Positions 1 to 24,256 of a stretch of 42,736 bases of DNA are shown in pieces. This DNA is from a virus, in UHGV virus genome UHGV-0389216. One strand, 5' to 3'. Numbering within the stretch: the first letter of the stretch is position 1; each line of letters begins with the position of its first letter. A program made the position numbers and the translations under genes. The notes under the pieces were generated by a model that saw nothing but the letters and a program-made list of their open reading frames with translations, did not search any database and was not told the DNA's origin.

Positions 1-1
1 T

Positions 2-169
2 AAGGCTGCCGTGGCAGGAATTAGTGGCAAAGTGACAGAGGTTAACCAGCAAAATACCTACCACATTTACGGTGGCGGAGATCCGCACGCTGTCGGTAAT
101 GAGGTTGCACGTCGGCAACAGTCTGCAAATGCTCAGGTCATGCGAAGTAATCAGGTGAGGGTGGGTTAG
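2..169 (+). CDS. 3' end of an upstream tail-module gene (partial, start lies outside window)
   Basis: Frame is open from the window edge to TAG at 167-169, and the stop overlaps the GTG start of the next ORF (TAGTG coupling). No start codon in window. Confidence 0.35.
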   Translation, partial: KAAVAGISGKVTEVNQQNTYHIYGGGDPHAVGNEVARRQQSANAQVMRSNQVRVG

Positions 170-756
170 TGGATATTCTCTCTACACTTTTTCATCAGCA
201 GAGCAGAAAAATAGGAATGATTGTTCCCAGTGTTGTTATTTCAGAGAAGCATACAGATATGCTTGAAATAACAGAGCATCCGGTAGAGGTCGGGGCTGCT
301 GTCGCTGATCATGCCTATAAAAAACCGTCAGAAGTGGTGATGGAGGTTGGTTTCGCCGGTGGCGGCGCATTGCTGGATTTTGCCAGTAACCTGACGGCTA
401 CCAGCCTGCTCGGCCTGAGTCCTCAGCAGACGTATCAGGAGCTACTGGATCTGCAGGAAAGCCGTATCCCCTTCGATGTGGTAACCGGTAAACGGCTGTA
501 CAGCAACATGTTGATCCGGGCGCTGGAAGTGACGACGGACAAGACAACCGAAAACGTCCTGTCCGCCGTCCTCACCCTGAGGGAGGTCCTTATCTCCCGG
601 ACACAGCAGATCACCGTCGCTGATAAAACCAACATGAAGGAAGGGGCCAGCACGTCGGCGGTACAGAACAGCGGCAACAAAACCACAAAGCCTCCAGATA
701 CTTCACTGCTGAAAAGCATCACGGGTAACGTGGTGTCATTACTGGGAGGCGGATAA
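169..756 (+). CDS. phage tail/baseplate-module protein, function unknown
   Basis: 195-aa ORF with GTG start preceded by GAGGGTGGG; translationally coupled to flanking ORFs in a tail gene block. Confidence 0.45.
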   Translation: MDILSTLFHQQSRKIGMIVPSVVISEKHTDMLEITEHPVEVGAAVADHAYKKPSEVVMEVGFAGGGALLDFASNLTATSLLGLSPQQTYQELLDLQESRIPFDVVTGKRLYSNMLIRALEVTTDKTTENVLSAVLTLREVLISRTQQITVADKTNMKEGASTSAVQNSGNKTTKPPDTSLLKSITGNVVSLLGGG

Positions 757-1058
757 TGACAATTCAGGAAATTCCGCTGACAGCGGACAACCAGCAGTTC
801 AGCATCGTCCTGGGTGGTGTCACCTGGCGGATTAGCATCATATGGCGCGATCCTTACTGGATTATGGACCTGCAGAACGACAGAGGGGAGCCGGTAATCT
901 CCGGTATACCTCTCGTCACTGGCGCTGACCTGCTGGCGCAGTACGCCTGTATGGGACTTGGTTTTAAGCTGTTGGTGGTCTGCGATGACAACACACAGGA
1001 TTATCCCACGAAAACTGACCTGGGCGGGCGCAGTCATTTACTGGTATCAACGGAGTAA
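756..1058 (+). CDS. small tail/baseplate-module protein
   Basis: 100-aa ORF; ATG at 756 overlaps previous stop (TAATG); position in baseplate block. Confidence 0.4.
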   Translation: MTIQEIPLTADNQQFSIVLGGVTWRISIIWRDPYWIMDLQNDRGEPVISGIPLVTGADLLAQYACMGLGFKLLVVCDDNTQDYPTKTDLGGRSHLLVSTE

Positions 1059-1060
1059 GC

Positions 1061-2122
1061 ATGACACAGAACTGGATGAGACATTTCGAGCTGCAGCTTG
1101 TGGACGGGAACGGTCAGGGAATTGAGCTAAGTGATTTCAAAGTCACCTTTACGATCGACTGGTTCAACATCAGCAGCGCGTCCCGGGTAGGGACTATCAA
1201 AATTTATAACCTCTCGGCAGATACTGTGAACCGAATTACCGGGCAGGAGTTTTCGAAAGTGCGTCTGATTGCGGGTTACGATGGTATCGCGCCGGAGGTG
1301 TCGGCAAGCGATGTCGGGACCGTGCGGGAGGTTGATGCGGCGGACGTGGGCCAGAGTGATGGCCGCAACTACGGACTGATTTTCAGCGGTGAAATTCGCT
1401 ACTCGGTCACAGGAAAAGACAGCCCGGTTGATTCCTACGTCCTGATTCAGGCAGCCGATACAGATCTGGCTTTTGCCACCAGCATAACTTCGCAGACGCT
1501 GGCGGCCGGTTATACGGTCGCAGACGTGAATCGCGCGCTGATGAAAGACTTCGAGGCCAAAGGCGCGACTGAAGGTCTGACGCCTGAAATGCCTGCTACC
1601 GTTTTCCCCCGGGGCCGGGTGCTATTCGGCATGACACGTCATCTTATGGATAACGTGGCCGGACAATGTGGCGCAACATGGCAGTTCGTGGATGGTCAGC
1701 GCCAGATGGTGGCGAATAACGAATATGTTCACGACGCGATTGTGCTCAGCAGTGCCACGGGGCTTATCGGTATGCCACAGCAGACTATCGGCAACGGCGT
1801 AAACGTCCGCGCGCTGATTAACCCGAACATCCGGGTTAACGGGCTCATTCAGCTGGATCAGGCTTCAGTATTCCGCACCGCGCTGTCGAACAACGATATC
1901 GCGATGGCCGGCGGGCAGATCACCGACCAGAACACGGACGGAAATATCACGCTCAGCGGCACCACATCGCAGCCTGCCAGCATCGCAACGGATGGCGTTT
2001 ATATTGTGCGCGGGATTATGTACAGTGGCGATACAAGGGGCCAGGCGTGGTACATGGATATGATGTGCGAAGCGCGTGGCGCGGCGGATCTGTATACGCA
2101 ATCGGCTTTGCAAAGGGGATGA
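1061..2122 (+). CDS. baseplate hub-like tail protein (putative)
   Basis: 353-aa ORF, ATG 1061 with GGAG upstream; size and position upstream of spike/J-like genes. Assignment is positional. Confidence 0.45.
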   Translation: MTQNWMRHFELQLVDGNGQGIELSDFKVTFTIDWFNISSASRVGTIKIYNLSADTVNRITGQEFSKVRLIAGYDGIAPEVSASDVGTVREVDAADVGQSDGRNYGLIFSGEIRYSVTGKDSPVDSYVLIQAADTDLAFATSITSQTLAAGYTVADVNRALMKDFEAKGATEGLTPEMPATVFPRGRVLFGMTRHLMDNVAGQCGATWQFVDGQRQMVANNEYVHDAIVLSSATGLIGMPQQTIGNGVNVRALINPNIRVNGLIQLDQASVFRTALSNNDIAMAGGQITDQNTDGNITLSGTTSQPASIATDGVYIVRGIMYSGDTRGQAWYMDMMCEARGAADLYTQSALQRG

Positions 2123-2125
2123 GCA

Positions 2126-2467
2126 ATGAGGGGTATTATTTTTCTGTTAGCTGTCTTTTCTGCGTGCAGCGCGTGGGCGGATGGCTTCACGGTTAAATGC
2201 GGTGGCTACACTATGGTTGCAAACCAGGGCGAGTTATCGACAATCAACGGTGAAAGAGTTACCTCTCAAAAAATCACCGAACTGGGTACCAATGGTTTGA
2301 AAGTAGACATGGGGCTTATGCCTGCCAAAGACGGTAACAACTACGGCTTTGAATACATTCGTCGCCCTGGTACCGAAACGCGATTCCTGAATGTCCAACT
2401 GCTGCAGAACAGCATGGATGCGCCGAAAATCATCGGTTCCTTTCCATGCAAAAAGATTGTTGATTAA
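2126..2467 (+). CDS. small secreted protein / possible lipoprotein (moron)
   Basis: 113 aa; N-terminal signal peptide MRGIIFLLAVFSACSAW with lipobox-like FSAC; inserted between baseplate genes. Confidence 0.5.
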   Translation: MRGIIFLLAVFSACSAWADGFTVKCGGYTMVANQGELSTINGERVTSQKITELGTNGLKVDMGLMPAKDGNNYGFEYIRRPGTETRFLNVQLLQNSMDAPKIIGSFPCKKIVD

Positions 2468-2520
2468 TCACTCGTAATTATAATGTGATACTTCTACTTT
2501 CACGATAAGGAATTTGTCGC

Positions 2521-2760
2521 ATGTTCGGATTTGATAAATTAATAACTCCAAAAATCATCAACGTTCTGTATGGCATCACAATGTTACTTCTGGTTGTTGC
2601 CGCCATTATAACGTTTGTTAATGGGAAGGCTGCTGGCGCTTTAGTGCTTTTGTTATGTGCTGTATTTTGCCGAATATTCTTTGAGTGCATCATGGTTTCA
2701 TTTAAAAACAATGAGTATCTTCGCCGAATAGCTGAAGCGTTAGAAGCAAACAAGCAGTAA
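2521..2760 (+). CDS. small two-helix membrane protein (moron)
   Basis: 79 aa with two hydrophobic segments (ITMLLLVVAAIITFV; ALVLLLCAVFCRIFF); AT-rich upstream region; followed by terminator. Confidence 0.45.
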   Translation: MFGFDKLITPKIINVLYGITMLLLVVAAIITFVNGKAAGALVLLLCAVFCRIFFECIMVSFKNNEYLRRIAEALEANKQ

Positions 2761-2778
2761 TGAAACTTCAATAATGAA

Positions 2779-2800
2779 CCCGCCACCCGGCGGGTTTTTT
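2779..2800 (+). terminator. rho-independent terminator
   Basis: CCCGCC-ACCC-GGCGGG hairpin followed by TTTTTT. Confidence 0.7.
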
Positions 2801-2819
2801 GCTTTCTGGAGCCTACTAA

Positions 2820-3572
2820 ATGGCAGTATCTGACCAGACCCGCAGCGGCGACCTTGCTGAAACATTCAAATCTGAACGGGAAACAACAAAGAACCAGATC
2901 CGTGTCGCCTTGCCTGGCATTGTTCAGTCATTCGATCCCGACGCGGTGACGGCGGTTGTGCAGCCAGCTATCCGTTCGGTTGAAAAGGATAACGACGGTA
3001 ACCGCATTACCAAAAATTACCCGTTGCTGGTGGATGTGCCAGTGGTATTTCCGCGCGGCGGAGGCTGTACGTTGACTTTTCCGGTTAAAGCCGGGGATGA
3101 GTGTCTTGTCGTTTTTGCCGATCGTTGTATTGATTTCTGGTGGCAGAGCGGTGGGATACAGGAGCCGGTCGATGACAGAATGCATGATTTATCGGATGCG
3201 TTTTGTATTGTCGGTCCCCAGTCGCAGGCGAGGAAGATTAGCGGTATTAATACCAGTGCTACACAGTTGCGTAGTGACGACGGCAGCACCTATTTTGAGC
3301 TTAATCCTGATACCAGGAAAATTAAAATTGTCGCTCCGGGGGGCCTTGATGTGGTTGCCCCTCTGGCTGATTTTTCTGAGAAAGTAACCATTCATGGCCT
3401 GTTAACCTGGATGGGGGGCATGGTGGGGTCTGTTGTTTCTGGTGTAGCTTCAAAAATCACTGGTGCTGTTGAGTTTTTGGGTAGCGTGAAGGCTAACGGC
3501 AAGCCAATCGATGATACGCACACTCATGGCGGTGTTCAGCGCGGTGGAAGCAATACCGATGGGGTAAACTGA
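2820..3572 (+). CDS. baseplate assembly/spike protein (gpV-like, putative)
   Basis: 250-aa ORF, ATG 2820 after CTGGAG; position before small baseplate protein and J-like gene; Gly-rich C-terminus. Confidence 0.5.
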   Translation: MAVSDQTRSGDLAETFKSERETTKNQIRVALPGIVQSFDPDAVTAVVQPAIRSVEKDNDGNRITKNYPLLVDVPVVFPRGGGCTLTFPVKAGDECLVVFADRCIDFWWQSGGIQEPVDDRMHDLSDAFCIVGPQSQARKISGINTSATQLRSDDGSTYFELNPDTRKIKIVAPGGLDVVAPLADFSEKVTIHGLLTWMGGMVGSVVSGVASKITGAVEFLGSVKANGKPIDDTHTHGGVQRGGSNTDGVN

Positions 3573-3925
3573 TGCGATACAGACGTGAAGACGCCGATGG
3601 CGATTACACCTTTGGCAGCGGTGATGACACCTGGCTGATTAACTCACCGGAGGCCGTGGCGCAGGCGGTAAAAACGCGATTCGAATTGTGGTATGGGCAA
3701 TGGTTTCTCGACACCACCGAAGGGACTCCGTGGATCCAGTCCGTGCTCGGTAAGCAGAAGCCGGAAACCTACAACCTGGCGATCCGTAAGCGCATCCTCG
3801 AAACGCAGGGCGTTAAATCAATCCTCTCTTTCAATACGACGGTGGATACCACGACCCGACGTGTCATGTTTTCCGCTGAAATCGACACTCTTTATGGAAT
3901 AACGACTGTTACATCGGAGGCGTAA
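3572..3925 (+). CDS. small baseplate protein (gpW/gp25-like, putative)
   Basis: 117 aa; start overlaps previous stop (TGATG); conserved V-W-J-I type order. Confidence 0.45.
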   Translation: MRYRREDADGDYTFGSGDDTWLINSPEAVAQAVKTRFELWYGQWFLDTTEGTPWIQSVLGKQKPETYNLAIRKRILETQGVKSILSFNTTVDTTTRRVMFSAEIDTLYGITTVTSEA

Positions 3926-5124
3926 TGGCTCTGAACCTTGATTCTCTCGGTTTATCTGCAAAGGTAACCGCGGAGGGGATCAGTGCGCCTGATTATCAGA
4001 CGATACTCAGCACCCTGATTAGCTATTTTCAGCAGATTTATGGCAGTGATGCCTACCTCGAACCGGACAGCAAAGACGGCCAGATGGTGGCTCTGATGGC
4101 GCTGGCGATTCATGATGCCAATAATATGGCGATAACTGTCTACAACTGTTTTTCACCGGCAACCGGCTATGGGGCCGCACTGACCAGTAACGTGAAAATA
4201 AATGGTATTTCACGTAAAGGCGCGACGAATTCTACGGTTGATTTGCTTCTTACAGGAACTGCCGGAACAACCATCATTAATGGCAGCGTGAAAGACAGTA
4301 ATAATGTGATATGGCGTTTGCCTGTTTCAGTGGTGGTCGGCGTGGATGGTACAGTGATGGTGACCGCAACATGTTCCGTCAGTGGTGCAGTGGCGGCGCT
4401 GGCTGGAACAATCACTGAAATTAATACGCCAACCCGTGGCTGGGTTTCGGTAACTAATCCTGCTGCGGCTACTGTTGGCTCTCCGGCAGAAACTGATGCT
4501 GAGTTACGTATCCGCCAGTCGCAAAGTGTTGCGTTGCCATCAATAACCCCATTTGAAGCACTGGATGGTGCTGTTTCTAATGTTGTCGGTGTAACCCGCC
4601 ACAAACTCTATGAAAACGATACTGGTTCGGAGGACGGTAACGGGTTACCGCCACACTCTGTTGCTGTAATTGTGGATGGTGGTGATGTGACGGATATTGC
4701 TCAGGCTATCAGAGGGAATAAAGGCCAGGGGACAGCCACTCACGGTACAACATCCGTTACGGTTCCGGATAAATACGGCAATCCCCATGTAATCAAATTC
4801 TCGCGTTCCAGTGATGTGCCTGTTTATGCCCGGATTAAATTAAAAGTTTTTACGGGTTATACCTCACAGATAGGGCAGCAGATCCAGCAGGCTATTTCCG
4901 ACTATATCAATAGTCTGATGATTGGTGATTCGGTCCTTTTAAGTCGCATTTACTCACCGGCGAATCTTGGCGTGGTGAGTGGCGGGAATGCACGCTATTA
5001 CGATATTCAGGAACTGACGATTGGTAAATCCCCGGGGGCTTTGTCGTCATCAAACATTGATATCAGATACAACGAATCTGCGTCCTGTACCCCGGAAAAT
5101 ATCGTTATAACGGTGGAGTCATGA
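3925..5124 (+). CDS. baseplate J-like protein
   Basis: 399 aa; ATG 3925 after GGAGG, overlaps previous stop; size and order typical of baseplate J. Confidence 0.55.
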   Translation: MALNLDSLGLSAKVTAEGISAPDYQTILSTLISYFQQIYGSDAYLEPDSKDGQMVALMALAIHDANNMAITVYNCFSPATGYGAALTSNVKINGISRKGATNSTVDLLLTGTAGTTIINGSVKDSNNVIWRLPVSVVVGVDGTVMVTATCSVSGAVAALAGTITEINTPTRGWVSVTNPAAATVGSPAETDAELRIRQSQSVALPSITPFEALDGAVSNVVGVTRHKLYENDTGSEDGNGLPPHSVAVIVDGGDVTDIAQAIRGNKGQGTATHGTTSVTVPDKYGNPHVIKFSRSSDVPVYARIKLKVFTGYTSQIGQQIQQAISDYINSLMIGDSVLLSRIYSPANLGVVSGGNARYYDIQELTIGKSPGALSSSNIDIRYNESASCTPENIVITVES

Positions 5125-5801
5125 GCAAATACACCGAACTAATCACGAACTACCACGCCACCAAACCTAAATTTCTTGCACATGTTGATCTGATGACCCG
5201 GCCGCTTATTGATGTTGCGGCTGCCACCAGAGGGCTGATTACTGCATTTGATATTGACTCTGCGGTTGGTGTGCAACTTGACATTCTGGGATTGTGGATC
5301 GGACGTAGCCGTGTTGTCAGCCAGCCTATCTCAGGTGTCTATTTCAGCTGGGATACCGACGGGCTTGGATATGATCAGGGTGTATGGCAGGGACCATACG
5401 ATCCTGATTTAGGATACATGTATCTCAGCGATGAAACTTATCGTGTCATTCTTAAAGCGAAGATTGCGATTAATAACTGGGACGGACGGAATGATTCGCT
5501 TCCGGCAATTCTTGACGCGGCAACAGCAGGATCCGGGCTGCGAATGCAGATAGTCGATAACCAGGACATGACGATATCGGTCTGGGTCTTTCCTGATACT
5601 GATATTTCAGATGTATCGCGTGAGTTAATTGCGGCAATTAAACAGGGGTATCTCACAGTAAAAGCCGCCGGGGTATGGGCGGGTGGCATTGAAACACCTT
5701 CTGTGGAAACCCCATCGGAAGGTTCAAAATTTTTTGGTTTTGATATGGATAACGAATTCATCAGTGGTTTTGATGTAGGGGCATGGGGAGTATTACTCTG
5801 A
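5121..5801 (+). CDS. baseplate/tail protein I-like
   Basis: 226 aa; ATGA overlap with J-like gene; precedes tail fibre gene. Confidence 0.45.
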   Translation: MSKYTELITNYHATKPKFLAHVDLMTRPLIDVAAATRGLITAFDIDSAVGVQLDILGLWIGRSRVVSQPISGVYFSWDTDGLGYDQGVWQGPYDPDLGYMYLSDETYRVILKAKIAINNWDGRNDSLPAILDAATAGSGLRMQIVDNQDMTISVWVFPDTDISDVSRELIAAIKQGYLTVKAAGVWAGGIETPSVETPSEGSKFFGFDMDNEFISGFDVGAWGVLL

Positions 5802-6868
5802 TGGCAAAAAATGACTTTAAAGCATTCGCAACGGGTAAAAATGCCAATGTTATGCCGCAGGAGGAATGGGAAGCGTTGCCTGCGCTTTTATCCGGATTTA
5901 CAGCAGGGAAAGCATCCAGTGCGCAGGTGAACAAAGCCATTCGACAGGCCAGCTTTATTACGGCAGCGCTTGCACAGTACACAGCTAATAAAAGTGGGCT
6001 GGATGTGCTTGATGATGGTGACCTGAACGGGTTTATCTCCAAAATGGAAGCGGCTTTGGGGAAGGATTTCCAGGCGCTTGACGCCACGCTCACTGCACTG
6101 GCAGGCCTTGCCACTGCGGCAGACAAACTTCCGTATTTTACGGGGAATGATACAGCCAGCCTGACAACCCTGACTAACGTTGGACGGAATATTCTGGATA
6201 AAGCAAGCACACAGGCGGTTATTCAATATCTTGGTCTGAGCGATGCAAGTGGATACGTTGGACGCTGGCTGAATACCCGGGTTTTCACCTCATCAGGTAC
6301 GTACACCCCGACGCCAGGAACAAAACGGATCAGGGTCACAATAACGGGCGGCGGTGGCGGAGGGGGCGGCTGCAAGGCTACATCCAATAATGAAACGTTT
6401 TTCGGTGCTGGCGGTGGGGCCGGTGGAACAATAATTTCAATAATGACCCCGACACAGAATAGTTATCCAGTCACTATCGGCGCAGGTGGGGCCGGTGGTG
6501 TTAGTGCAACGTACGGCATCAATGGCGGTAATAGCTTATTCGCATCGTTAATTGCTCCTGGTGGCGCAGGCGGCGGAAAGTCAGGAGTCACAAACACAAA
6601 TGGTGGTAACGGAGGTGTGCCGAGTACTGGCAATATCAATATCATTGGTGGATGTGGAGGCGACGGTCAGTCCGGAAATATCGGCGTCAGCGGTGAAGGC
6701 GGAACATCGTACTGGGGAGGTGGTGGACGCGCAGGCGCTGGCGGTGGCGTTAGCGGTAAGGCATATGGTTCAGGCGGAGGTGGTGCATACGATGCTGGTT
6801 ATAGCGGAACCAGTATGACGGGCGGGAAAGGCGCTTCAGGGATTTGTATTATCGAGGAGTTTGCATAA
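5801..6868 (+). CDS. tail fibre protein with glycine-rich C-terminal domain
   Basis: ATG at 5801 overlaps previous stop (TGATG). N-terminus MAKNDFKAF...; C-terminal half is GGxGG-rich (TGGGGGGGGC...GAGGAGG...GGNGG). Confidence 0.6.
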   Translation: MAKNDFKAFATGKNANVMPQEEWEALPALLSGFTAGKASSAQVNKAIRQASFITAALAQYTANKSGLDVLDDGDLNGFISKMEAALGKDFQALDATLTALAGLATAADKLPYFTGNDTASLTTLTNVGRNILDKASTQAVIQYLGLSDASGYVGRWLNTRVFTSSGTYTPTPGTKRIRVTITGGGGGGGGCKATSNNETFFGAGGGAGGTIISIMTPTQNSYPVTIGAGGAGGVSATYGINGGNSLFASLIAPGGAGGGKSGVTNTNGGNGGVPSTGNINIIGGCGGDGQSGNIGVSGEGGTSYWGGGGRAGAGGGVSGKAYGSGGGGAYDAGYSGTSMTGGKGASGICIIEEFA

Positions 6869-7284
6869 TGAATGCGTCATATGCAGTTATTGAAAATGGG
6901 ATGGTTGTGAATGTCATTGTCTGGGATGGCGAGGCTGAATTCACAGTGCCGGATAATCAGCAGCTCATTGATATTTCTGATATCAGTGAGCATCCCGGAA
7001 TCGGCTGGGCGTATTCAGACGGGGGATTTACTGCGCCGCTCCCTCCGGAACGTTCTCATGATGAACTGGTAGCTGACGCTGAACAGAAAAAACAGTCGTT
7101 GGTAGACGCAGCAATGGTCAATATCAGCGTGATTCAGTTAAAGCTGCAGGCCGGGCGCAAACTGACGCAAGAAGAAACTACCCGACTTAACGTTGTGCTG
7201 GATTATATCGACGCTGTGACGGCAACAGATACCAGCACTGCACCGGATATTGAGTGGCCGGATGAACCGTGCTTCGCTGAATAA
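6868..7284 (+). CDS. tail fibre assembly protein (Tfa-like)
   Basis: 138 aa from ATG 6868 (TAATG overlap with fibre gene); C-terminal ...DIEWPDEP resembles Tfa chaperones; last gene of tail block. Confidence 0.5.
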   Translation: MNASYAVIENGMVVNVIVWDGEAEFTVPDNQQLIDISDISEHPGIGWAYSDGGFTAPLPPERSHDELVADAEQKKQSLVDAAMVNISVIQLKLQAGRKLTQEETTRLNVVLDYIDAVTATDTSTAPDIEWPDEPCFAE

Positions 7285-7539
7285 AATCTGTTGAGAAGTG
7301 GTTTAATTGTATCTCAATTCTTTTTGAGTAATAAAAGTAGGACAAAGCTGAGACAAATAAAGCCTCGCAATGGTTGCAGGCTTTGAACACTTCTATATTG
7401 AGTATGTGACGAGGTTTTGTTTATTTACATTCTATATATTGATCTCAATTTTTATGAATGTAGAGCATACGGATAAACCGCAGTGTGATTAGAGTCAAGG
7501 TAATAACTGTTGACTCTAATCATTGCAAAGTAACTTTAT

Positions 7540-8607
7540 TTATTGAAATTTATCTCGGATGAATTGCTGCGATGGTTTTTCAATGAATATATATGACATA
7601 TAGCTAATTGCCATTAATGTAAGCATGAATAAAATGAATACATTGGAGCTGTAAAAAAGATCGCGTCCATAGCCAATCCTGTCAGCTAAATAAACAGCAA
7701 TGATTTGCAAAGGAAAATGTAAAAGATAAGATGAATAACTGATATCACCCAACCATTCAATTTTCTTCCCAAAGTCGTTTCGCATTGCGCTAATTGATAC
7801 AAGGAAAAATATTATGGAGGTAAATCCAAATAAAATAATTGAGAATATATCTGCTACTTGCAGGATAAAAATAACTCCCCACGAGATTAATAGAAAAACA
7901 CAAGCGAAAATAAAAAATGATTTTGTGCCAATATTTTTTATGAACGCAATCGTAATTTTATAGGTCAGACCACCAATAAAGAAAGAGAATGCGCCGATCA
8001 TTATGGGATTGTTAATTTTGAAAAAGTAGTACGACAATGCAACTATTAAAATTGATATGAATGTTGTTTTTGATGTGAACTTGCATAATATAAAAAATAT
8101 CATGTACATAAGTACTTCAATCGACACGGACCATGTCGGTGCGTTGAAGGACCAACCTCGCTCAAATCCCCATGATTGAATCATCAATAAATTCAGAATG
8201 GCATGGTAAATGTCATTCATAGGATAAACAAAAAAATAATTATAACTTTTAAAGAAAATAATTTGTAATATTACCACGACAGCAAATGTAAATATATAAA
8301 GTGGATATAATCTACTGACACGGTTAACTATAAAAGTTTTTGCTGAGGTTTTATTGCTGTGTATATTGTCAGCGTATAGATAAAAAAATATGAATCCAGA
8401 AATCATAAAAAACAATTCGACAGCATATAAACCGTAATGATAAAAGACGGAAAAAAATTCATAAAAAGGTTGGCGGTTTATGATTATGTCAGATGCAGCA
8501 TTCTTTTTCATAAAAAAATGTTGCCAATGCCATAACACAACTGAAAGTGCGGCAAATCCTCTCAGAACATCTAGGGTATATATTCTTTTCCCAAAAACAT
8601 TCGTCAC
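7540..8607 (-). CDS. acyltransferase family 3 membrane protein, O-antigen acetylase-like
   Basis: 355 aa, GTG start. N-terminal LDVLRGFAALSVVLWHWQHFF motif and about 10 hydrophobic helices as in Oac/OafA-type acyltransferases; strongly AT-rich; opposite strand to tail genes. Confidence 0.75.
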   Translation of the reverse strand: MTNVFGKRIYTLDVLRGFAALSVVLWHWQHFFMKKNAASDIIINRQPFYEFFSVFYHYGLYAVELFFMISGFIFFYLYADNIHSNKTSAKTFIVNRVSRLYPLYIFTFAVVVILQIIFFKSYNYFFVYPMNDIYHAILNLLMIQSWGFERGWSFNAPTWSVSIEVLMYMIFFILCKFTSKTTFISILIVALSYYFFKINNPIMIGAFSFFIGGLTYKITIAFIKNIGTKSFFIFACVFLLISWGVIFILQVADIFSIILFGFTSIIFFLVSISAMRNDFGKKIEWLGDISYSSYLLHFPLQIIAVYLADRIGYGRDLFYSSNVFILFMLTLMAISYMSYIFIEKPSQQFIRDKFQ

Positions 8608-8849
8608 AACGAACCTCTTTTAATAAAGTCAAGTGATAATGAAAAGTAAATATTGTAAACGAAAAAACACTGGACTGGAACATATATCTCTGCCTGTAAT
8701 TTAACCAAGATAGTTTTACTAACATAATCATAATTCGTTTATATGAACACATCCCGTTTGCAAGGCATCCATTGTTATGACATTGACGGTAGGTTGCAGC
8801 TTTATATCCGGCTTTTTGCAGCCGCAAAGCTGCTAGCCCCTATGTAATT

Positions 8850-10260
8850 CGCTGACTCACACCTCATTTCCTGTGCGGGCTTTAAGCTCAAAGAATTATT
8901 CAGGTTTAGCGAGTCACGGTCTTACCTGTCGTTGTCATCACTCTGGCCGCCAGAGCAACCTTTCAGTATTCACCCTTTCATTAAAAGTTAATATTTATCG
9001 GTATCAGCGATTAATATGGTCTGATACTGACATGATTCTTGTCGTATTTACTTCCATGAGCTGCTATCGCCCATACTGTTCGTGCCAGTTTGTTTGCCAT
9101 GGCGACGATTGCCACGCTGGCTGGACGACGTTTTTTCAGTTCGGTTATCCACGGACCAGGTTCTTTGGTCAGTAATGCTGCCGCCCTTGCGCCATGAATA
9201 AACAAGGCTCGCAGATATGTATCACCACGTTTGCTTATCCCCAGCAGGCGGATTTTCCCTCCTGAGCCAGTCTGTTTGGGCACCAGACCAACATAAGCCG
9301 CGAACTCTCGCCCTGATTTAAACGCTGATGCTTCCCCCATGGTGGCCACCGCTGCCGTCGCAATAAGTGGCCCAACGCCGGGAATATCCAGCAACCGCTT
9401 ACAGGTTTCATTCTGTTTCGCCACGCTGGTAAGCTGTTTTTCAATATCCTCTATCAGTGAGTCCAGCTCATTCAGCCGGTTGTACTGGTTTTCCAGCACA
9501 GTAATGAGATACGGTGGCAGTCTCTCTTTCATCCGCTCCAGTGCTTCAGGGAACTCCCGCTCCATTGCTGCCCGACCTTTGTGAATTGTTTCACCAAATT
9601 CCAGGAGCGTGCCGTGCAGGGAGTTAATCTGCATGGTGCGGAACTTCACCAGTTGTCTGCGGGAACGATGCAGAACCAGTACCGACTGCTGTTCTTCTGT
9701 TTTGACAGCGATTTCCTTGCCGGGCTGTTGTACTGCCATCCAGATAGCCCGGGCATCCATAACATCGTTTTTATTACCCATGACGAACGCTTTAACGAAG
9801 CGGGCCTGCAACAACCGGACTTTATGACCCAGCTTTGTCAGTTCACGTGCCCAGTGCTGCGAGCCTCCACAGGCCTCCATACCAATCAGGCAGGGTTCCC
9901 GATTACAGAAGAACATCAGAAAATCCTGACGACGCAACTGCTTATCAATCACTTCACCTGTGTGCTCGTCGATGAAGTGAACCTGAATGACATGTTTTGC
10001 GATATCAACGCCAACCGGTGTATATTTCATTTGTGGAGTCTCCAGTCTGAAGGAGCTTTATGCATCCCGTATTGGGCACTATGATGCCGGAAATCTGCGA
10101 GGCTCCACACCTTCCTGTATTTCCCTTCATCTATCACTGTGCACCTTACTTAATGGGGGGGATGTGTTCATTACATTTCATGTATACCAGATGAAAGTGC
10201 ATGTTCTATGAAACAGGGTTTTGCCTGGAGTTTGAAGGGTTTTAAAGATTATACCTGTTT
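8850..10260 (-). mobile_element. IS110-family insertion sequence (boundaries approximate)
   Basis: Contains a single IS110-type transposase ORF with about 160 bp 3' and about 230 bp 5' non-coding flank. Exact ends not determinable by eye. Confidence 0.5.
9011..10030 (-). CDS. IS110-family transposase (DEDD-type)
   Basis: 339 aa starting MKYTPVGVDIAKHVIQVHFIDEHTGEV with ...GMEACGG...NDVMDARA..., the N-terminal DEDD fold pattern of IS110/IS1111 transposases; C-terminal domain follows. Confidence 0.85.
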   Translation of the reverse strand: MKYTPVGVDIAKHVIQVHFIDEHTGEVIDKQLRRQDFLMFFCNREPCLIGMEACGGSQHWARELTKLGHKVRLLQARFVKAFVMGNKNDVMDARAIWMAVQQPGKEIAVKTEEQQSVLVLHRSRRQLVKFRTMQINSLHGTLLEFGETIHKGRAAMEREFPEALERMKERLPPYLITVLENQYNRLNELDSLIEDIEKQLTSVAKQNETCKRLLDIPGVGPLIATAAVATMGEASAFKSGREFAAYVGLVPKQTGSGGKIRLLGISKRGDTYLRALFIHGARAAALLTKEPGPWITELKKRRPASVAIVAMANKLARTVWAIAAHGSKYDKNHVSIRPY

Positions 10261-10628
10261 AATCTGCTACCCATGTTTTTTGATATTATCCACCGCACAC
10301 GATACCGGATGCCAGGTAAACTGATTTGCTGGCACAAAGTCGCTGAGAATTCTTTACCAACAATATATTACCACATCTTTTCCCGCACAGTTTCGGCAAC
10401 AGAATCAGCGGGCGGCGGTCATCAATATTCACTAGACATTGATCTGCCGTACTATCTGACCTGTATTTTGCTGAGACTGCTTATTTCCAGTTTTTACTAG
10501 TGCTGTACTGGTACTGCCCAATCATGATTGGTGGGGGCGGAGTTGAGACCGCAGCCACGTCGTATGCAAGAACGTGCCACGGCTGGCTGATAAGCTTGTA
10601 AAAATCTTGAACAGGGAGTGGAGCATTT

Positions 10629-11276
10629 CTATGAAGCTAATTTGTTTAATTTCATTTGTAGCGACTTTACTTCTTGGTCGATAATGTTGAATCCCTTATT
10701 GACTGCATCTCTTAGCTCTGCATCAATATTTTTTATCCCTTGAGCATAATCTACCATTACATCTATTTTTGCATCATGTAATCTTTTATACATGGTTTTA
10801 TCTTTGTTATTGTCAGCCATACCAATAAGGATTTTTTCATAATCCTCAATGAGTTTGTTGTTTCCTTTAAATGATTGTATTAATGACCGTGAATATGTGT
10901 AGATATTAATTATTGAGTCTCTGGCAGAATCATTTAGTTTTGCAATGACATTCGCATTTTGCTCATAGAATGTGAAATTATCATCCCCTACAGGGAAAGT
11001 GAGAATTAACATCTGTCCGGGTTTGATATTATCAATGTGTGTTTTCATCCTTTTATTATATAAATTGATTAGGGTGAAAACTTCTCCCTTAACACCTTTT
11101 AATACTGAAAGTTGCAATTCAAGGGATTCTCTTTCTGTCTCTACTTTAGACAGCTTAGCTTGTTGGGTAACTCCTTTTAGGGTAAACCATCCGCCAATAA
11201 GAGTACCAACTAGAGCAGTGAGGGAGGAGGATAACCATCCAGGAATGCTATTTAAAAGATTACTAAATTCACTCAT
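10629..11276 (-). CDS. hypothetical membrane-anchored coiled-coil protein
   Basis: 215 aa; N-terminal hydrophobic helix (LSSSLTALVGTLIGGWFTL) then Lys/Glu-rich helical region; AT-rich; no family recognised. Confidence 0.45.
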   Translation of the reverse strand: MSEFSNLLNSIPGWLSSSLTALVGTLIGGWFTLKGVTQQAKLSKVETERESLELQLSVLKGVKGEVFTLINLYNKRMKTHIDNIKPGQMLILTFPVGDDNFTFYEQNANVIAKLNDSARDSIINIYTYSRSLIQSFKGNNKLIEDYEKILIGMADNNKDKTMYKRLHDAKIDVMVDYAQGIKNIDAELRDAVNKGFNIIDQEVKSLQMKLNKLAS

Positions 11277-11334
11277 TATAAGTACTCGCTAATATTGAAC
11301 GATATATATATCAAATTATTATGAAACTCGTCAG

Positions 11335-11782: not shown

Positions 11783-12081
11783 CCGTATCATCATGAAAAT
11801 AAATATATTTTTATTTAATTTCACACATATCACAATTAATACAGCGTTTAGTAATTAGTAAAGACATTTCAATGGATTACCGTTAAATCATTTTAAAATC
11901 AGTAAGTTGTATCGAGTTTGTATGCTTTACTGTCATTAACTTACTGTATGTTGATCCAGTGTATTTAACCTTGATAAACTCAGTCCAGCAACACAAAACC
12001 GCAACACATTGCATTTTGTCCCGTAGAAAAGACTTGTATGTGTGAGCTTGTTTTCTGCGCCTACGCAGATAAGGATTGAGA

Positions 12082-13479
12082 ATGCCGCGCACTGTAACAC
12101 ATAATCCGGATAGCCCCAATAATGACGATGTTTTAGCCGCATCTGAAAAATGGGACGCCTGTAAACCCCCCTATACCAGCGCACACATGAAAATCTGTGT
12201 TGCTGCCGCCAAAATCATCCTCGCTGCTTCCGGCGTGGCTCGCCGTTCCAAATACGAAAAAGAGAACTATCTCCGTATCGATTTCAGCAAAGCCGGTAAG
12301 GTTACATTTTACGCCGAGTTTCCAAAAAAGATGGGCCTCAAGGGTAAAAAGCTCGGCGAGTGGCCGGAGCTCGCTATCCAGCTGGCGCGCGAAAAAGCGC
12401 TAGGTATGGCTGACTGTGGCCTGCGGGCAGAGTCCGTACATGCAGCGCTGGAAATGTACCGGGATGACCTCAAAGCCAAAGTCGCCCGGCAGAAGCTGAG
12501 CCCGGACAGTTTCACAACCTACGGGGTGCGTATCGACCGGATTAAAGCAACGTTCGGCGAGCGCGAGGTGTTCAGCGACGTAACATACAATCGGCTGGTG
12601 GAAGTGCTGGACGAGTGGATCGCTACTCGCTCGAACAATAACGCCCTGGAGTTGTTTGCCGAGCTCCGTCGGTTCTGGAAGTTCTGCGCACCTACTCTTT
12701 GCAACGGCCGCAATGTTGCCGCCAGTCTGCCAGATGATTATGTTTCCTCCCGCGTACAGAAACCTACCCCCACACGGCTTTTTACCGATATTGAATCAAT
12801 CGCCCGACTCTGGCTCAATGTTGCTGCCTGCACCTCTGTACACCAGAAGAATGCTGTTCGCTTCATGATCATCACTGGCGTTCGTCCGATTAATGTCCAT
12901 AACCTGCGCTGGGACTACGTTCACGAGGAGGCTGGTGAAATTGTTTATCCGGAAGGGGTTATCGGCATGCGAGGGGCTATGAAAACACAAAAGGCTTTCC
13001 GCCTGCCGATAACGCCTGAGATCCGGCGGATTATCGACGAGCAGAAAGCCTGGCGTGATTCAGTTCCTGAGTGCAACAGGGATTATGTATTTTTGCAGCC
13101 ACGTGATCCAATGCAGCCATTTTCAAAACGATCACTGGATAAGCTGGTGAAAACATACAGCCCGGACGGGGCTGTAAAAGGAATAAAACATGATGGGACT
13201 GTTAAAGGGAAAGACGGTGCATTTAATACGATGTGCCGTAAATTCCTTAAGAGCAATGTTATTGCCTTGATGAAGGAAAGAGGCTATTCCCGATCAGACC
13301 GAAGGGAAATCAGCCTCCTTTGCCTTCACCACTCCAGTAAGTCAGATGACCCGATGGCAGAACATTACGACTTTTCTGATGAGATTTTACAGGAAGAGAT
13401 TGCGTTAAAGCGCGAAGCTTTCGAGGCTCACGAGCGGAGCATACTTGCGCAGGTGGCATTGCTACGGCGGCGAGGTTAA
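12082..13479 (+). CDS. int: tyrosine-type site-specific integrase
   Basis: ATG 12082 preceded by AAGGA. Contains ...MIITGVRPINVHNLRW... and C-terminal ...LCLHHSSKSD...AEHY consistent with R/H/Y catalytic boxes; adjacent convergent AlpA/Xis-like gene. Confidence 0.7.
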   Translation: MPRTVTHNPDSPNNDDVLAASEKWDACKPPYTSAHMKICVAAAKIILAASGVARRSKYEKENYLRIDFSKAGKVTFYAEFPKKMGLKGKKLGEWPELAIQLAREKALGMADCGLRAESVHAALEMYRDDLKAKVARQKLSPDSFTTYGVRIDRIKATFGEREVFSDVTYNRLVEVLDEWIATRSNNNALELFAELRRFWKFCAPTLCNGRNVAASLPDDYVSSRVQKPTPTRLFTDIESIARLWLNVAACTSVHQKNAVRFMIITGVRPINVHNLRWDYVHEEAGEIVYPEGVIGMRGAMKTQKAFRLPITPEIRRIIDEQKAWRDSVPECNRDYVFLQPRDPMQPFSKRSLDKLVKTYSPDGAVKGIKHDGTVKGKDGAFNTMCRKFLKSNVIALMKERGYSRSDRREISLLCLHHSSKSDDPMAEHYDFSDEILQEEIALKREAFEAHERSILAQVALLRRRG

Positions 13480-16776: not shown

Positions 16777-17538
16777 TTACGAGGAAGCGTTAGCTATTTG
16801 AGCTTGTGTAAATTCGAAACCAGAATTTTGTAACCGTTGCACTAGACGAGGAACTGTTTCACGTACATGGTCGTTGAAATTCAGATACAAAATCCCGTTA
16901 GCATCAGAAGGCTGTTCTAGGTGCTGTTTCTGAAGGATTGCTACATTGCTGCGCCCTAAGGACGAAAGAAGCATACCCATCTCGAGTACAACGTTCTGTC
17001 TTGCGCGGGGTTGGATTTCTGCTTCACCGGCGCGCTTTGAGTATCCCATATCATCAGGTGTCAAAAGAACAATCCCGAAACGGGTAGCAGTTTGTCCTTG
17101 CCCAATTTCACGTTCAAGCTCTTCAATAATGGTGAGTCCAGTCCCTCCCGTATTCTGCAAAATGAAATGGTCTGGTAATCCAAGTTTATGAAGGATTAGC
17201 TCAAGTTGTTCCTTTGCAGTATGGTCATGGCCGTGAACAATGAATATCTTTTTGGGAAGCTCAGATGGCTGTTCTACGGCTAGTGGTGTTGCCGTGGGGG
17301 GCGTTCCTAAATGGGACATTATTGCAGTTTCAACATTGGGACGTTCTTGAGGGTTACCTTGAAACTGAATGGTCCGGGTGGTGTAAAGGTTAACAATTAC
17401 GCCATTCGTTAAACGATAGCAGTCATAAGTCTCACGCTGTTCGTGGGAAAAATTGGTGAACCCACACTCCCTCAAAAAGTCAGGAAAAGATTCTCTCGGG
17501 TATGGATAGGTGATCGGCATTTCAGTTAGTTCCTGCAT
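16777..17538 (-). CDS. TIR-like (Cap12/PycTIR-type) nucleotide-binding domain protein with unassigned N-terminal domain
   Basis: 253 aa; C-terminal domain KKIFIVHGHDH...GIVLLTPDD...RQNVVLEMGMLLSSLGRSNVAIL matches the TIR-like predicted nucleotide-binding fold signature as I recall it; N-terminal 85 aa unassigned. Confidence 0.5.
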   Translation of the reverse strand: MQELTEMPITYPYPRESFPDFLRECGFTNFSHEQRETYDCYRLTNGVIVNLYTTRTIQFQGNPQERPNVETAIMSHLGTPPTATPLAVEQPSELPKKIFIVHGHDHTAKEQLELILHKLGLPDHFILQNTGGTGLTIIEELEREIGQGQTATRFGIVLLTPDDMGYSKRAGEAEIQPRARQNVVLEMGMLLSSLGRSNVAILQKQHLEQPSDANGILYLNFNDHVRETVPRLVQRLQNSGFEFTQAQIANASS

Positions 17539-23531: not shown

Positions 23532-24155
23532 CTAACGTTTACGGCGGTAAATACGGTGTTCGATCATTACACCTATGATCTGTAAGTTCATATCTGCACT
23601 ACGAAAAATAGGGTAATCAGGATTTAGGGGGATTAATTCAAAGTCGTCGATGCCGATTCCTAATGGACGGTATTTTTTAAATGTAGCTTCGTGACCGTCG
23701 TTTTTGGCGACAACAAACTCCCCTGGTGCAGGACATAGATCAGGATCGATGATAACAATGTCTCCTTCTTTAAACTCTGGTTGCATGCTGTCGCCATCGA
23801 TACGTAATGCGAAGCATGTTTCTGGAATGTCAGAGTCTGCCAAAATATATTCAAATTCCCCTGTCAGATCTGTTATGTCTCTTGCTTCTGTAAGCTCTCC
23901 TGCCTGAACGTAACTTAATATAGGTATGCGTCTGGTACTTATCTCCGCGAGAGGCATAATATTTTTACCGTTCAGTAGCCAGTCTGGGCTACATTTCAAG
24001 GCCTTAGCCAGATCCAGAAGATTGCGTGGCTTTCTGGTTCGTCCACTTTCGATGGATTCTATGGATTGTTGGCTAACCCCTGCAGAATTCGCTACTTCCA
24101 CTTGAGTCATTCCTAATTCCAAACGACGTGCTTTAAAACGGGCTGCGAGAGACAT
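23532..24155 (-). CDS. CI-like repressor (HTH plus S24 LexA-like peptidase domain)
   Basis: ATG 24155 with AGGA upstream; HTH MTQVEVANSAGVSQQSIESIESG; peptidase motif RIDGDSMQPEF; divergent from Cro-like gene. Confidence 0.85.
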   Translation of the reverse strand: MSLAARFKARRLELGMTQVEVANSAGVSQQSIESIESGRTRKPRNLLDLAKALKCSPDWLLNGKNIMPLAEISTRRIPILSYVQAGELTEARDITDLTGEFEYILADSDIPETCFALRIDGDSMQPEFKEGDIVIIDPDLCPAPGEFVVAKNDGHEATFKKYRPLGIGIDDFELIPLNPDYPIFRSADMNLQIIGVMIEHRIYRRKR

Positions 24156-24178
24156 GGGATTAGTCCTTCTGGGTTGTA

Positions 24179-24256
24179 TTAATGTGTATCCCCACATTAA
24201 AAACAATTTTTGTTGTATTTGACAAACCTCGTTTGTTGTTGCTAAATACCACTAAA
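24179..24256. promoter_or_regulatory. operator palindrome plus PR-like promoter of the immunity switch
   Basis: Perfect inverted repeat TTAATGTG-N6-CACATTAA (24179-24200); TTGACA (24219-24224), 18-bp spacer, TAAATA (24243-24248), then Cro start. Confidence 0.5.

What the first reader, a model, noticed from the sequence alone, without database searches (positions are those of the whole stretch)
5801..6868. Tail fibre with an unusually glycine-rich C-terminal half
The C-terminal 180 aa is dominated by GG(x)GG runs (TGGGGGGGGC, GAGGGAGG, GGAGGG...), ending in ...GICIIEEFA. Such Gly-rich distal fibre domains are candidate receptor-binding or host-range-variable segments.
Basis: seen in the sequence. 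Interest (0 to 1): 0.35.

Follow-up and report, generated by a model that had tools for sequence, protein, structure and literature searches.

The report
Ordinary glycine-rich phage tail-fibre tip
The gene encodes a short prophage tail fibre whose glycine-rich end is a well-known, widespread host-recognition domain that phages trade among themselves as a cassette, so it is real but ordinary.

Summary
Window 5801-6868 (+) is an intact 355-aa ORF. Its last 180 residues are 35% glycine, against 7% in the N-terminal 143. No other ORF in the window comes close.

The gene follows the baseplate-wedge genes and is followed by a tail-fibre assembly chaperone. The domain and its chaperone also occur, at about 90-96% DNA identity, on P1-like, P2-like and Mu/e14-like fibres. 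The closest sequenced phages are 97-99% identical over most of the genome. They carry a different distal fibre part with an invertase switch.

The receptor is unknown; LPS is likely by analogy with Klebsiella homologues.

The only mildly new point is that the domain, its chaperone and a low-GC acyltransferase gene move together as one 2.5-kb unit.

The parts
5801..6868 (+). Tail-fibre gene (355 aa), complete
   Evidence: ORF and translation. PHROG tail-fibre families, E down to 8.6e-94. 97.2% nt identity over its full length to a prophage of E. coli O8:H8, where the ORF is also intact.
5801..6025 (+). N-terminal anchor (aa 1-75), shared with the closest phages; presumed attachment to the baseplate wedge
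   Evidence: Homology to vB_EcoM-611R5 runs unbroken from the baseplate genes to window 6025 and then stops. With the O103:H2 prophage it stops at 5978. Protein alignment. Predicted helical, but at low confidence (pLDDT below 55).
6080..6229 (+). Junction block (aa 94-143, ...LTALAGLATAADKLPYFTG...IQY) of the P2 gpH / P1 S type
   Evidence: tblastn matches aa 109-154 to P2 gpH and to the P1/P7 S gene at the annotated Sc/Sv boundary and cixR site. P2-like E. coli prophage fibres share the DNA from nt 280 of the gene onward.
6226..6245 (+). Degenerate relic of a Din-invertase crossover site, encoding YLGLSD at the start of the glycine-rich domain
   Evidence: Relatives that carry pinE have the inverted repeat AAACCTTGGTTTGGGAGAAG, encoding NLGLGE, inside the fibre gene. 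The window has ATATCTTGGTCTGAGCGATG, a 14/20 match by my own count from the sequence. No site within 3 mismatches exists anywhere in the window. Homology with the StfP-type prophage begins exactly at 6230.
6230..6865 (+). Distal TNF-like plus glycine-rich (polyglycine-II type) domain, aa 144-355; presumed receptor-binding domain
6868..7284 (+). Tail-fibre assembly chaperone (Tfa, 138 aa), inherited together with the glycine-rich domain
   Evidence: Pfam Caudo_TAP, E 2.1e-20. In hundreds of E. coli records the megablast match to window 6230-9200 runs through to about nt 1020 (window about 7250), so it covers the domain and most of tfa. The 5' two-thirds of tfa are nearly identical on the P1-like, P2-like, StfP-type and this backbone; the 3' end differs.
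7540..8607 (-). Acyltransferase_3 membrane protein (presumed O-acetyltransferase moron), linked to the fibre cassette
   Evidence: Pfam Acyl_transf_3, E 4e-23, and PHROG O-acetyltransferase, E 2e-40. GC 31% against 49-55% in the neighbouring genes. Window 6230-8739 is shared as one block with StfP-type prophages at 94% identity; 47 genomes cover at least 80% of window 6230-9200.
5121..5801 (+). DUF2612 baseplate-wedge protein, immediately upstream; likely docking partner of the fibre
   Evidence: Pfam DUF2612, E 5e-47. PDB sequence matches to wedge proteins: gp89 of 9zd7 (E 1e-5), gp17 of 7kh1 (E 1e-4), and weakly Pam3 wedge gp23 (E 0.25).

Best explanation
This is the single short tail fibre of a temperate contractile-tailed phage of Escherichia coli.

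Architecture. The first ~75 residues are specific to this phage lineage and presumably anchor a trimer on the baseplate wedge. Residues 94-143 are a junction block common to P2 H and P1 S type fibres. Residues 144-355 fold into a TNF-like beta-sandwich. Its strands continue into about twelve glycine-rich extended segments packed as a lattice, as in cyanophage Pam3 gp24. The glycines are needed for that tight packing and are conserved.

Function. The connecting loops and one set of exposed strand positions vary, and presumably contact the host receptor. Lipopolysaccharide is the most likely receptor. The downstream Tfa chaperone probably grips the domain with its N-terminal part while the fibre trimerises.

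Host-range variation. It comes mainly from swapping the whole domain-plus-chaperone cassette at the conserved 'LGL' junction. In relatives this junction is a site-specific inversion site. Allelic changes in a few surface patches add a second, smaller source of variation. In this phage there is no invertase, so the fibre is fixed in one form.

Shown here: gene order, family membership, predicted fold, mosaic distribution and cassette boundaries. Inferred: trimer formation, chaperone contacts, receptor binding and receptor identity.
For: Identity and position: tail-fibre PHROGs, and flanking baseplate J, DUF2612 and Caudo_TAP genes.

Family: Pfam Gly_rich_2 above threshold. A weak sequence match to Pam3 fibre covers aa 157-354.

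Pam3 gp24 structure: a helical shaft, a TNF-like domain and a 12-motif glycine lattice. It has a proposed receptor-binding tip and a 3:3 chaperone complex (PMC9608196).

Conservation pattern: among 121 close homologues, Gly columns have entropy 0.04 bits against 0.27 for other columns. Variation is confined to aa 211-220, 238-250, 256, 261, 278-285, 295 and 346. Among 142 distant representatives, Gly columns have 1.19 bits against 2.60. Insertions fall between glycine motifs.

Cassette exchange: the same domain ends fibres on P1-like plasmids, a P2-like prophage, a Mu/e14-like StfP prophage, and 308-aa and 344-aa proteins. The nearest phages carry Stf-tfa-tfa'-Stf'-invertase instead.

Chaperone: the 5' part of tfa travels with the domain.
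Against: No binding, adsorption or host-range data exist for this protein or for any E. coli member at this level of identity.

The structure is a monomer prediction. The N-terminal 150 residues are low confidence. Neither the trimer nor the chaperone complex was modelled.

Placing the variable positions on loops or exposed strand faces therefore rests on secondary structure and on the Pam3 description, not on a measured surface.

Some variable positions (211-220, 244-250, 278-282) lie in TNF-like strands rather than at the distal tips, so the binding surface may be lateral.

The patch dN/dS values near or above 1 are biased upward, because the patches were chosen for being variable.

Identity to Pam3 gp24 is only 31%. 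The LPS precedent comes from other hosts.
Confidence: 0.8

Rival explanations
1. The glycine-rich half is a flexible, disordered or collagen-like spacer (a shaft or hinge), not a folded recognition domain.
For: Low-complexity composition: 35% Gly in the last 180 aa, and 67% G+A+S+T+N. BLAST's low-complexity filter masks much of it. Some giant-virus proteins with this fold are named 'collagen-like'.
Confidence: 0.03
2. It is a T2/S16 gp38-type adhesin: a polyglycine-II sandwich that binds an outer-membrane porin through hypervariable loops.
Confidence: 0.07
3. The domain is an enzyme, as the frequent database name 'carbohydrate kinase' suggests, or a depolymerase acting on surface polysaccharide.
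For: Dozens of 308-aa E. coli proteins with a domain 89-98% identical to this one are named 'carbohydrate kinase' in NCBI records. The authors of the Klebsiella TFP_Y study leave open whether it hydrolyses LPS. A few polar residues are invariant in the subfamily.
Confidence: 0.03
4. The fibre is one arm of an active invertible host-range switch, as in P1 Cin, Mu Gin or e14 Pin.
For: Relatives with the same baseplate carry pinE, an inverted second tfa and an alternative fibre end. They also have 20-bp inverted crossover sites in the fibre gene. The glycine-rich domain begins exactly at the equivalent codons. Degraded copies of the glycine-rich cassette lie beside recombinase remnants.
Against: In this window there is no invertase among the ORFs scanned around the fibre. 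No crossover site exists within 3 mismatches. No inverted second tfa or fibre end is present, and the inverted repeats found in 5700-8800 are short and AT-rich. Only a 14/20 relic remains. The slot holds an acyltransferase instead.
Confidence: 0.02

Closest known systems
Cyanophage Pam3 tail fibre gp24 with chaperone gp25 (PDB 7YPX, 7YFW; PMC9608196)
   Different: The N-terminal part is unrelated in sequence and about 60 residues longer, and it includes a P2 H / P1 S type junction block. The host is an enterobacterium. The subfamily has its own invariant residues (C191, DGQ 288-290, R310, YD 330-331). The trimer and the 3:3 chaperone complex were not tested here.
Klebsiella myophage tail fibre TFP_Y, described by the authors as a Pam3 gp24 homologue (PMC12671077)
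   Same: A small fibre with a TNF-like plus glycine-rich distal domain in an enterobacterial myophage. It gives the experimental link between this domain, host-range mutations and LPS.
   Different: I did not have the TFP_Y sequence to compare, so the relationship is through Pam3 only. That phage also uses capsule and a depolymerase.
Mycobacteriophage Bxb1 gp33 'tail wing brush' and gp29 tail spike subdomain (PDB 9D93)
   Different: A siphophage of a Gram-positive-type host. The domains decorate the tail tip rather than ending a baseplate fibre.
Variable C-terminal segments of P1 S, Mu S and P2 H fibres with their Tfa (U/G) partners
   Same: The same junction block and 'LGL' crossover codons. 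The same logic of a constant shaft plus an exchangeable end and a matched chaperone. In E. coli the very same glycine-rich domain ends P1-like and P2-like fibres.
   Different: The reference P1, Mu and P2 matches stop at the junction, about aa 154. This may partly reflect low-complexity masking. There is no inversion system in this window.
Salmonella phage S16 / T2-type gp38 adhesin (PDB 6F45)
   Same: A polyglycine-II lattice with variable connecting loops used for host recognition.
   Different: A separate monomeric tip protein with a different middle domain and ten motifs in three layers. It was not recovered by either fold search here.
ALK/LTK extracellular TNF-like plus glycine-rich ('TG') domain
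   Different: An animal receptor kinase, with 12-24% identity across the alignments, 14 helices in human ALK, and no fibre context.

Membership tests
Pfam PF21722 Gly_rich_2 | Whole-protein HMM score above the curated gathering threshold | tested here: met
   52.9 bits against a cut-off of 24.3, E 6.5e-14. The match covers aa 164-352 and profile positions 2-224 of 226.
Pam3 gp24-type fibre tip (TNF-like plus glycine-rich domain) | TNF-like beta-sandwich whose strands extend into a glycine-rich lattice | tested here: met
Pam3 gp24-type fibre tip (TNF-like plus glycine-rich domain) | About twelve glycine-rich motifs arranged as six loops | tested here: met
   Twelve Gly-rich stretches counted in aa 183-345 of the translation. 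The layer arrangement could not be checked without coordinates.
Pam3 gp24-type fibre tip (TNF-like plus glycine-rich domain) | Domain at the distal (C-terminal) end of a baseplate-attached fibre, with an N-terminal helical shaft | tested here: inconclusive
   The C-terminal position and the gene order after the wedge genes are met. The N-terminus is predicted helical but with pLDDT 35-57.
Pam3 gp24-type fibre tip (TNF-like plus glycine-rich domain) | Dedicated Tfa-like chaperone encoded immediately downstream | tested here: met
   Caudo_TAP gene at 6868-7284, co-inherited with the domain.
Pam3 gp24-type fibre tip (TNF-like plus glycine-rich domain) | Homotrimer forming a 3:3 complex with the chaperone | not testable with these tools
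   Only monomer prediction was available.
Pam3 gp24-type fibre tip (TNF-like plus glycine-rich domain) | Binds the host receptor | not testable with these tools
   Inferred from PMC9608196 and PMC12671077 only.
S16/T2 gp38 polyglycine-II adhesins | Structural match to the gp38 fold (beta-helix plus three-layer polyglycine-II sandwich) | tested here: not met
S16/T2 gp38 polyglycine-II adhesins | Separate small protein that caps a gp37-type fibre | tested here: not met
   The domain is fused in one ORF to the fibre's baseplate-proximal part.
Din-invertase-controlled invertible fibre segment (P1 C, Mu G, e14 P) | Serine invertase gene next to the fibre genes | tested here: not met
   No resolvase/invertase domain in the ORFs scanned. 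The slot is occupied by an acyltransferase.
Din-invertase-controlled invertible fibre segment (P1 C, Mu G, e14 P) | Pair of inverted crossover sites, one inside the fibre gene | tested here: not met
   No match within 3 mismatches to the relatives' site. Only a 14/20 relic at 6226-6245.
Din-invertase-controlled invertible fibre segment (P1 C, Mu G, e14 P) | Second, inverted fibre end and tfa | tested here: not met
   None in 6868-11300. Present in relatives.

The most novel reading that the evidence does not exclude
The receptor-binding domain, its chaperone and the low-GC acyltransferase (window 6230-8739) may form one mobile three-gene unit that couples 'which surface sugar I bind' with 'modify that sugar once I am a prophage'. 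Whichever phage backbone acquires the cassette would then gain both a host range and exclusion of phages carrying the same tip.

The block is shared at 94% identity with Mu/e14-like StfP prophages, whose tail modules are unrelated. A diverged pairing occupies the same slot in another relative: fibre 49%, tfa 37% and acyltransferase 23% identical.
Probability: 0.3. Interest if true: 0.45.

Novelty: already known. Interest (0 to 1): 0.15.

Why it matters
Little rests on it. It confirms that this prophage's host specificity is set by a Pam3-type glycine-lattice tip.

It also gives exact, natural cassette boundaries: 6230 on the left and the end of tfa on the right. These could guide fibre swaps when engineering E. 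coli phages, phage-plasmids or tailocins.

Two annotation errors are worth flagging. The NCBI name 'carbohydrate kinase' for the 308-aa copies is a misnomer. The pseudogene call on an intact fibre gene in E. coli O8:H8 is also wrong.

If the linkage with the acyltransferase is functional, it would be a tidy example of receptor recognition and receptor masking travelling together.

Tried and rejected
- Megablast of the gene against the phage collection found nothing. tblastn found only the N-terminal and junction parts, because the low-complexity filter masks most of the glycine domain.
- NCBIfam gave no hit for the fibre or its neighbours.
- A second word-indexed homologue search, using a profile of distant representatives, returned essentially the same close E. 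coli clusters and added no diversity. The diverse sequences used for structure prediction came from the representative search.
- The PDB sequence search with Tfa gave nothing useful.
- Model coordinates are not exposed, so I could not map variable residues onto the surface or measure backbone angles to prove polyglycine-II geometry.
- The patch-wise dN/dS calculation is reported only as description, because the patches were picked for variability.
- I considered an active inversion switch and rejected it.
- I considered the 5783 start codon and rejected it in favour of 5801, on homologue starts and ribosome-binding-site spacing.
- The full-length AF2 run did not give a usable N-terminal model.

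Full report
**1. The observation**

Window 5801-6868 on the + strand is one open reading frame of 355 codons.
- Its ATG overlaps the stop of the upstream gene (ATGA).
- It is preceded by GGGGAG at a suitable distance.
- It matches the start MAKNDFKAF of homologues.

All quoted strings are present.
- Glycine makes up 7.0% of residues 1-143, 32.1% of residues 144-355 and 35.0% of the last 180.
- The richest 100-residue stretch is 42% glycine. The next-best of 62 ORFs in all six frames reaches 19%.

The feature is real and is not a chance fluctuation.

**2. What the gene is**

The upstream genes match Baseplate_J and DUF2612, and the downstream gene matches the tail-fibre assembly family Caudo_TAP. 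PHROG tail-fibre families match the protein down to E 8.6e-94.

The two upstream proteins match solved baseplate-wedge proteins of other myophages. These include, weakly, Pam3 gp22 and gp23.

The window as a whole is a circularly permuted temperate myophage genome.
- Lysis, terminase, head and tail genes run from about 28.2 kb to the end and continue from position 1 to the fibre.
- An integrase, a repressor, a family A polymerase and other early genes lie between.

Its nearest sequenced relatives are Escherichia phages vB_EcoM-611R5, 606R2, 689R2 and 683R1, at 97-99% identity over most of the genome. An almost collinear prophage sits next to yfhH in E. coli O8:H8.

**3. What the glycine-rich half is**

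Residues 164-352 match Pfam Gly_rich_2 (PF21722) at 52.9 bits against a threshold of 24.3. A sequence search of the PDB gives a weak match over residues 157-354 to the cyanophage Pam3 fibre.

The family is very large.
- 6,939 cluster representatives match at E up to 0.001, and 1,043 at up to 1e-10.
- The domain ends at the very C-terminus in nearly all of the best 150.

I aligned the window domain with 19 diverse representatives. AlphaFold2 then gave a model with mean pLDDT 93.5 and pTM 0.89.
- Foldseek gives the same order.
- In a library of viral models, 263 entries match at E up to 0.001. They include the jumbo phage Goslar fibre (71% identity, TM 0.97), cyanophage, Xanthomonas and mycobacteriophage proteins, and giant-virus 'collagen-like' proteins.

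The published Pam3 structure describes three things (PMC9608196):
- a TNF-like sandwich whose strands extend into six loops, each with two glycine-rich motifs, stacked as a lattice;
- a variable distal tip proposed to bind the host;
- a chaperone whose N-terminal domain holds the side of the domain.

I count twelve glycine-rich motifs here as well. Other authors classify the Pam3 and Bxb1 domains as polyproline-II/polyglycine-II helical bundles (PMC13243192).

S16 gp38, the classic polyglycine adhesin, did not appear in either fold search. This protein therefore belongs with Pam3 gp24 rather than with gp38.

**4. Is the domain variable?**

*Whole-cassette replacement.*
- Homology with vB_EcoM-611R5 stops at window 6025 (residue 75) and resumes at 11320. 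With the O103:H2 prophage it stops at 5978 and resumes at 10544.
- Those relatives carry a different fibre end, two opposed tfa genes, an alternative fibre end and an invertase.
- Their 20-bp inverted crossover sites encode NLGLGE inside the fibre gene.
- In the window the equivalent codons (YLGLSD, 6226-6245) match that site at 14 of 20 positions. The glycine-rich domain begins exactly there.

*The same domain on other backbones.* At roughly 90-96% DNA identity it ends:
- fibres of P1-like phage-plasmids (677 and 1,060 aa);
- a P2-like prophage fibre (695 aa);
- a Mu/e14-like StfP fibre;
- 308-aa and 344-aa proteins.

Homology with the StfP-type prophage starts precisely at 6230. In most of these places the match continues through most of tfa. 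The 5' two-thirds of tfa are almost invariant across backbones, while the 3' end differs. This fits the Pam3 finding that the chaperone's N-terminal domain is the part that binds the fibre tip.

*Variation within the domain.*
- Among 121 close homologues the glycine columns are almost fixed (0.04 bits) and residues 296-355 are nearly invariant.
- Substitutions cluster at 211-220, 238-250, 256, 261, 278-285, 295 and 346.
- Several of these follow an every-other-residue pattern on predicted strands, which suggests one exposed face.
- Among 142 distant representatives, glycine columns again are the conserved ones (1.19 against 2.60 bits). Insertions fall between motifs.
- In six nucleotide alleles the pre-selected patch positions hold most non-synonymous changes: 10 of 12 against the closest prophage. 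Patch dN/dS is mostly 1 to 1.6 (range 0.6-3.0), against 0.03-0.21 elsewhere.
- The patches were chosen for variability, so this is description and not proof of selection.
- The chaperone's fibre-binding part does not vary with the patches. The patches are therefore more likely to face the receptor than the chaperone.

**5. Mechanism**

Best explanation, at about 0.8 confidence for the overall picture. A trimeric short fibre is anchored on the wedge by its N-terminus. It presents three TNF-like/glycine-lattice domains whose variable surface binds a host envelope component.

The receptor is not known. LPS is favoured, at roughly 0.4 confidence, for three reasons:
- A Klebsiella myophage homologue of Pam3 gp24 interacts with LPS.
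- Its host-range mutations map to the glycine-rich domain.
- A second such case is cited in the same paper (PMC12671077).

The adjacent acyltransferase is also suggestive. Trimerisation, chaperone contacts and binding are all inferred.

**6. Rivals**

- A disordered or collagen-like spacer is excluded by the confident compact model and by conserved non-glycine residues.
- A gp38-type porin adhesin is not supported by fold or gene organisation, though a protein receptor remains possible.
- The database name 'carbohydrate kinase', borne by many 308-aa copies, has no support from any family or fold match.
- An active inversion switch is absent here. There is no invertase, no intact site and no inverted partner.

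**7. The linked acyltransferase**

Directly after tfa, on the opposite strand, lies an Acyl_transf_3 gene (7540-8607) with 31% GC against 49-55% around it.
- Window 6230-8739 is shared as one block, at 94% identity, with StfP-type prophages whose tail genes are otherwise unrelated.
- 47 genomes hold a place covering at least 80% of window 6230-9200, that is up to about window 8740.
- Another relative has, in the same slot, a glycine-rich fibre 49% identical, a tfa 37% identical and an acyltransferase only 23% identical.
- Salmonella phage SEN34 also has an acyltransferase beside its fibre gene.

It is established knowledge that temperate phages carry O-antigen-modifying genes. Whether this enzyme masks the receptor of this particular tip is untested. 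That is the most novel reading the data allow, at a probability of about 0.3.

**8. Verdict**

The object is a member of a curated, structurally solved and very common family. Identical or near-identical copies are already in public E. coli genomes. It is ordinary.

Novelty: already known. Interest: 0.15.

Noticed in passing
window 8740-10176: An IS110-family insertion sequence (transposase ORF 9011-10030 on the - strand; Pfam DEDD_Tnp_IS110 and Transposase_20). It is absent from the otherwise collinear prophage in E. coli O8:H8. It sits 132 bp upstream of the acyltransferase start codon, so it may cut off or replace that gene's promoter.
   Followed up: partly
window 7540-8607 (- strand), with 6230-7284: A low-GC (31%) Acyl_transf_3 gene travels with the glycine-rich domain and tfa as one 2.5-kb block into unrelated Mu/e14-like StfP prophages. 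A diverged fibre/tfa/acyltransferase trio occupies the same slot in E. coli DEF10 (L006).
   Followed up: partly
window 16777-17538 (- strand): A 253-aa protein with a CAP12/Pycsar-effector-type TIR domain (E 2.9e-31), lying between an SNF2-type helicase and a family A DNA polymerase. The near-identical phages annotate it as 'TIR-like domain-containing protein'. It may be a defence or counter-defence gene.
   Followed up: no
proteins P0003-P0120; L001 12001-13068: Annotation errors in public records. Dozens of 308-aa E. coli proteins ending in this same domain are named 'carbohydrate kinase'. The intact fibre gene of the E. coli O8:H8 prophage is annotated as a pseudogene 'missing N-terminus', although it translates without a stop.
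   Followed up: yes
L008 3833-3852 and 5690-5709; L007 3833-3852 and 5683-5702: Relatives with the same baseplate carry a complete Pin-type invertible fibre switch with 20-bp crossover repeats (AAACCTTGGTTTGGGAGAAG). The window keeps only a 14/20 relic at 6226-6245.
   Followed up: yes
window 6868-7284 against L003, L004 and L005 (alignment A4): The tfa gene is itself mosaic. The first ~250 nt are almost invariant on every backbone that carries the glycine-rich tip. The last ~150 nt diverge with the backbone (P1-like, P2-like). This agrees with an N-terminal fibre-binding part and a separately evolving C-terminal part.
   Followed up: partly
window 1-42736: The window is a whole, circularly permuted temperate myophage genome of about 42.7 kb. 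Late genes run from about 28.2 kb through the end into 1-7284. The integrase is at 12076-13479 and an S24/HTH repressor at 23532-24206. It is the same length class as vB_EcoM-611R5 and 606R2 (42,739 and 42,743 bp).
   Followed up: partly
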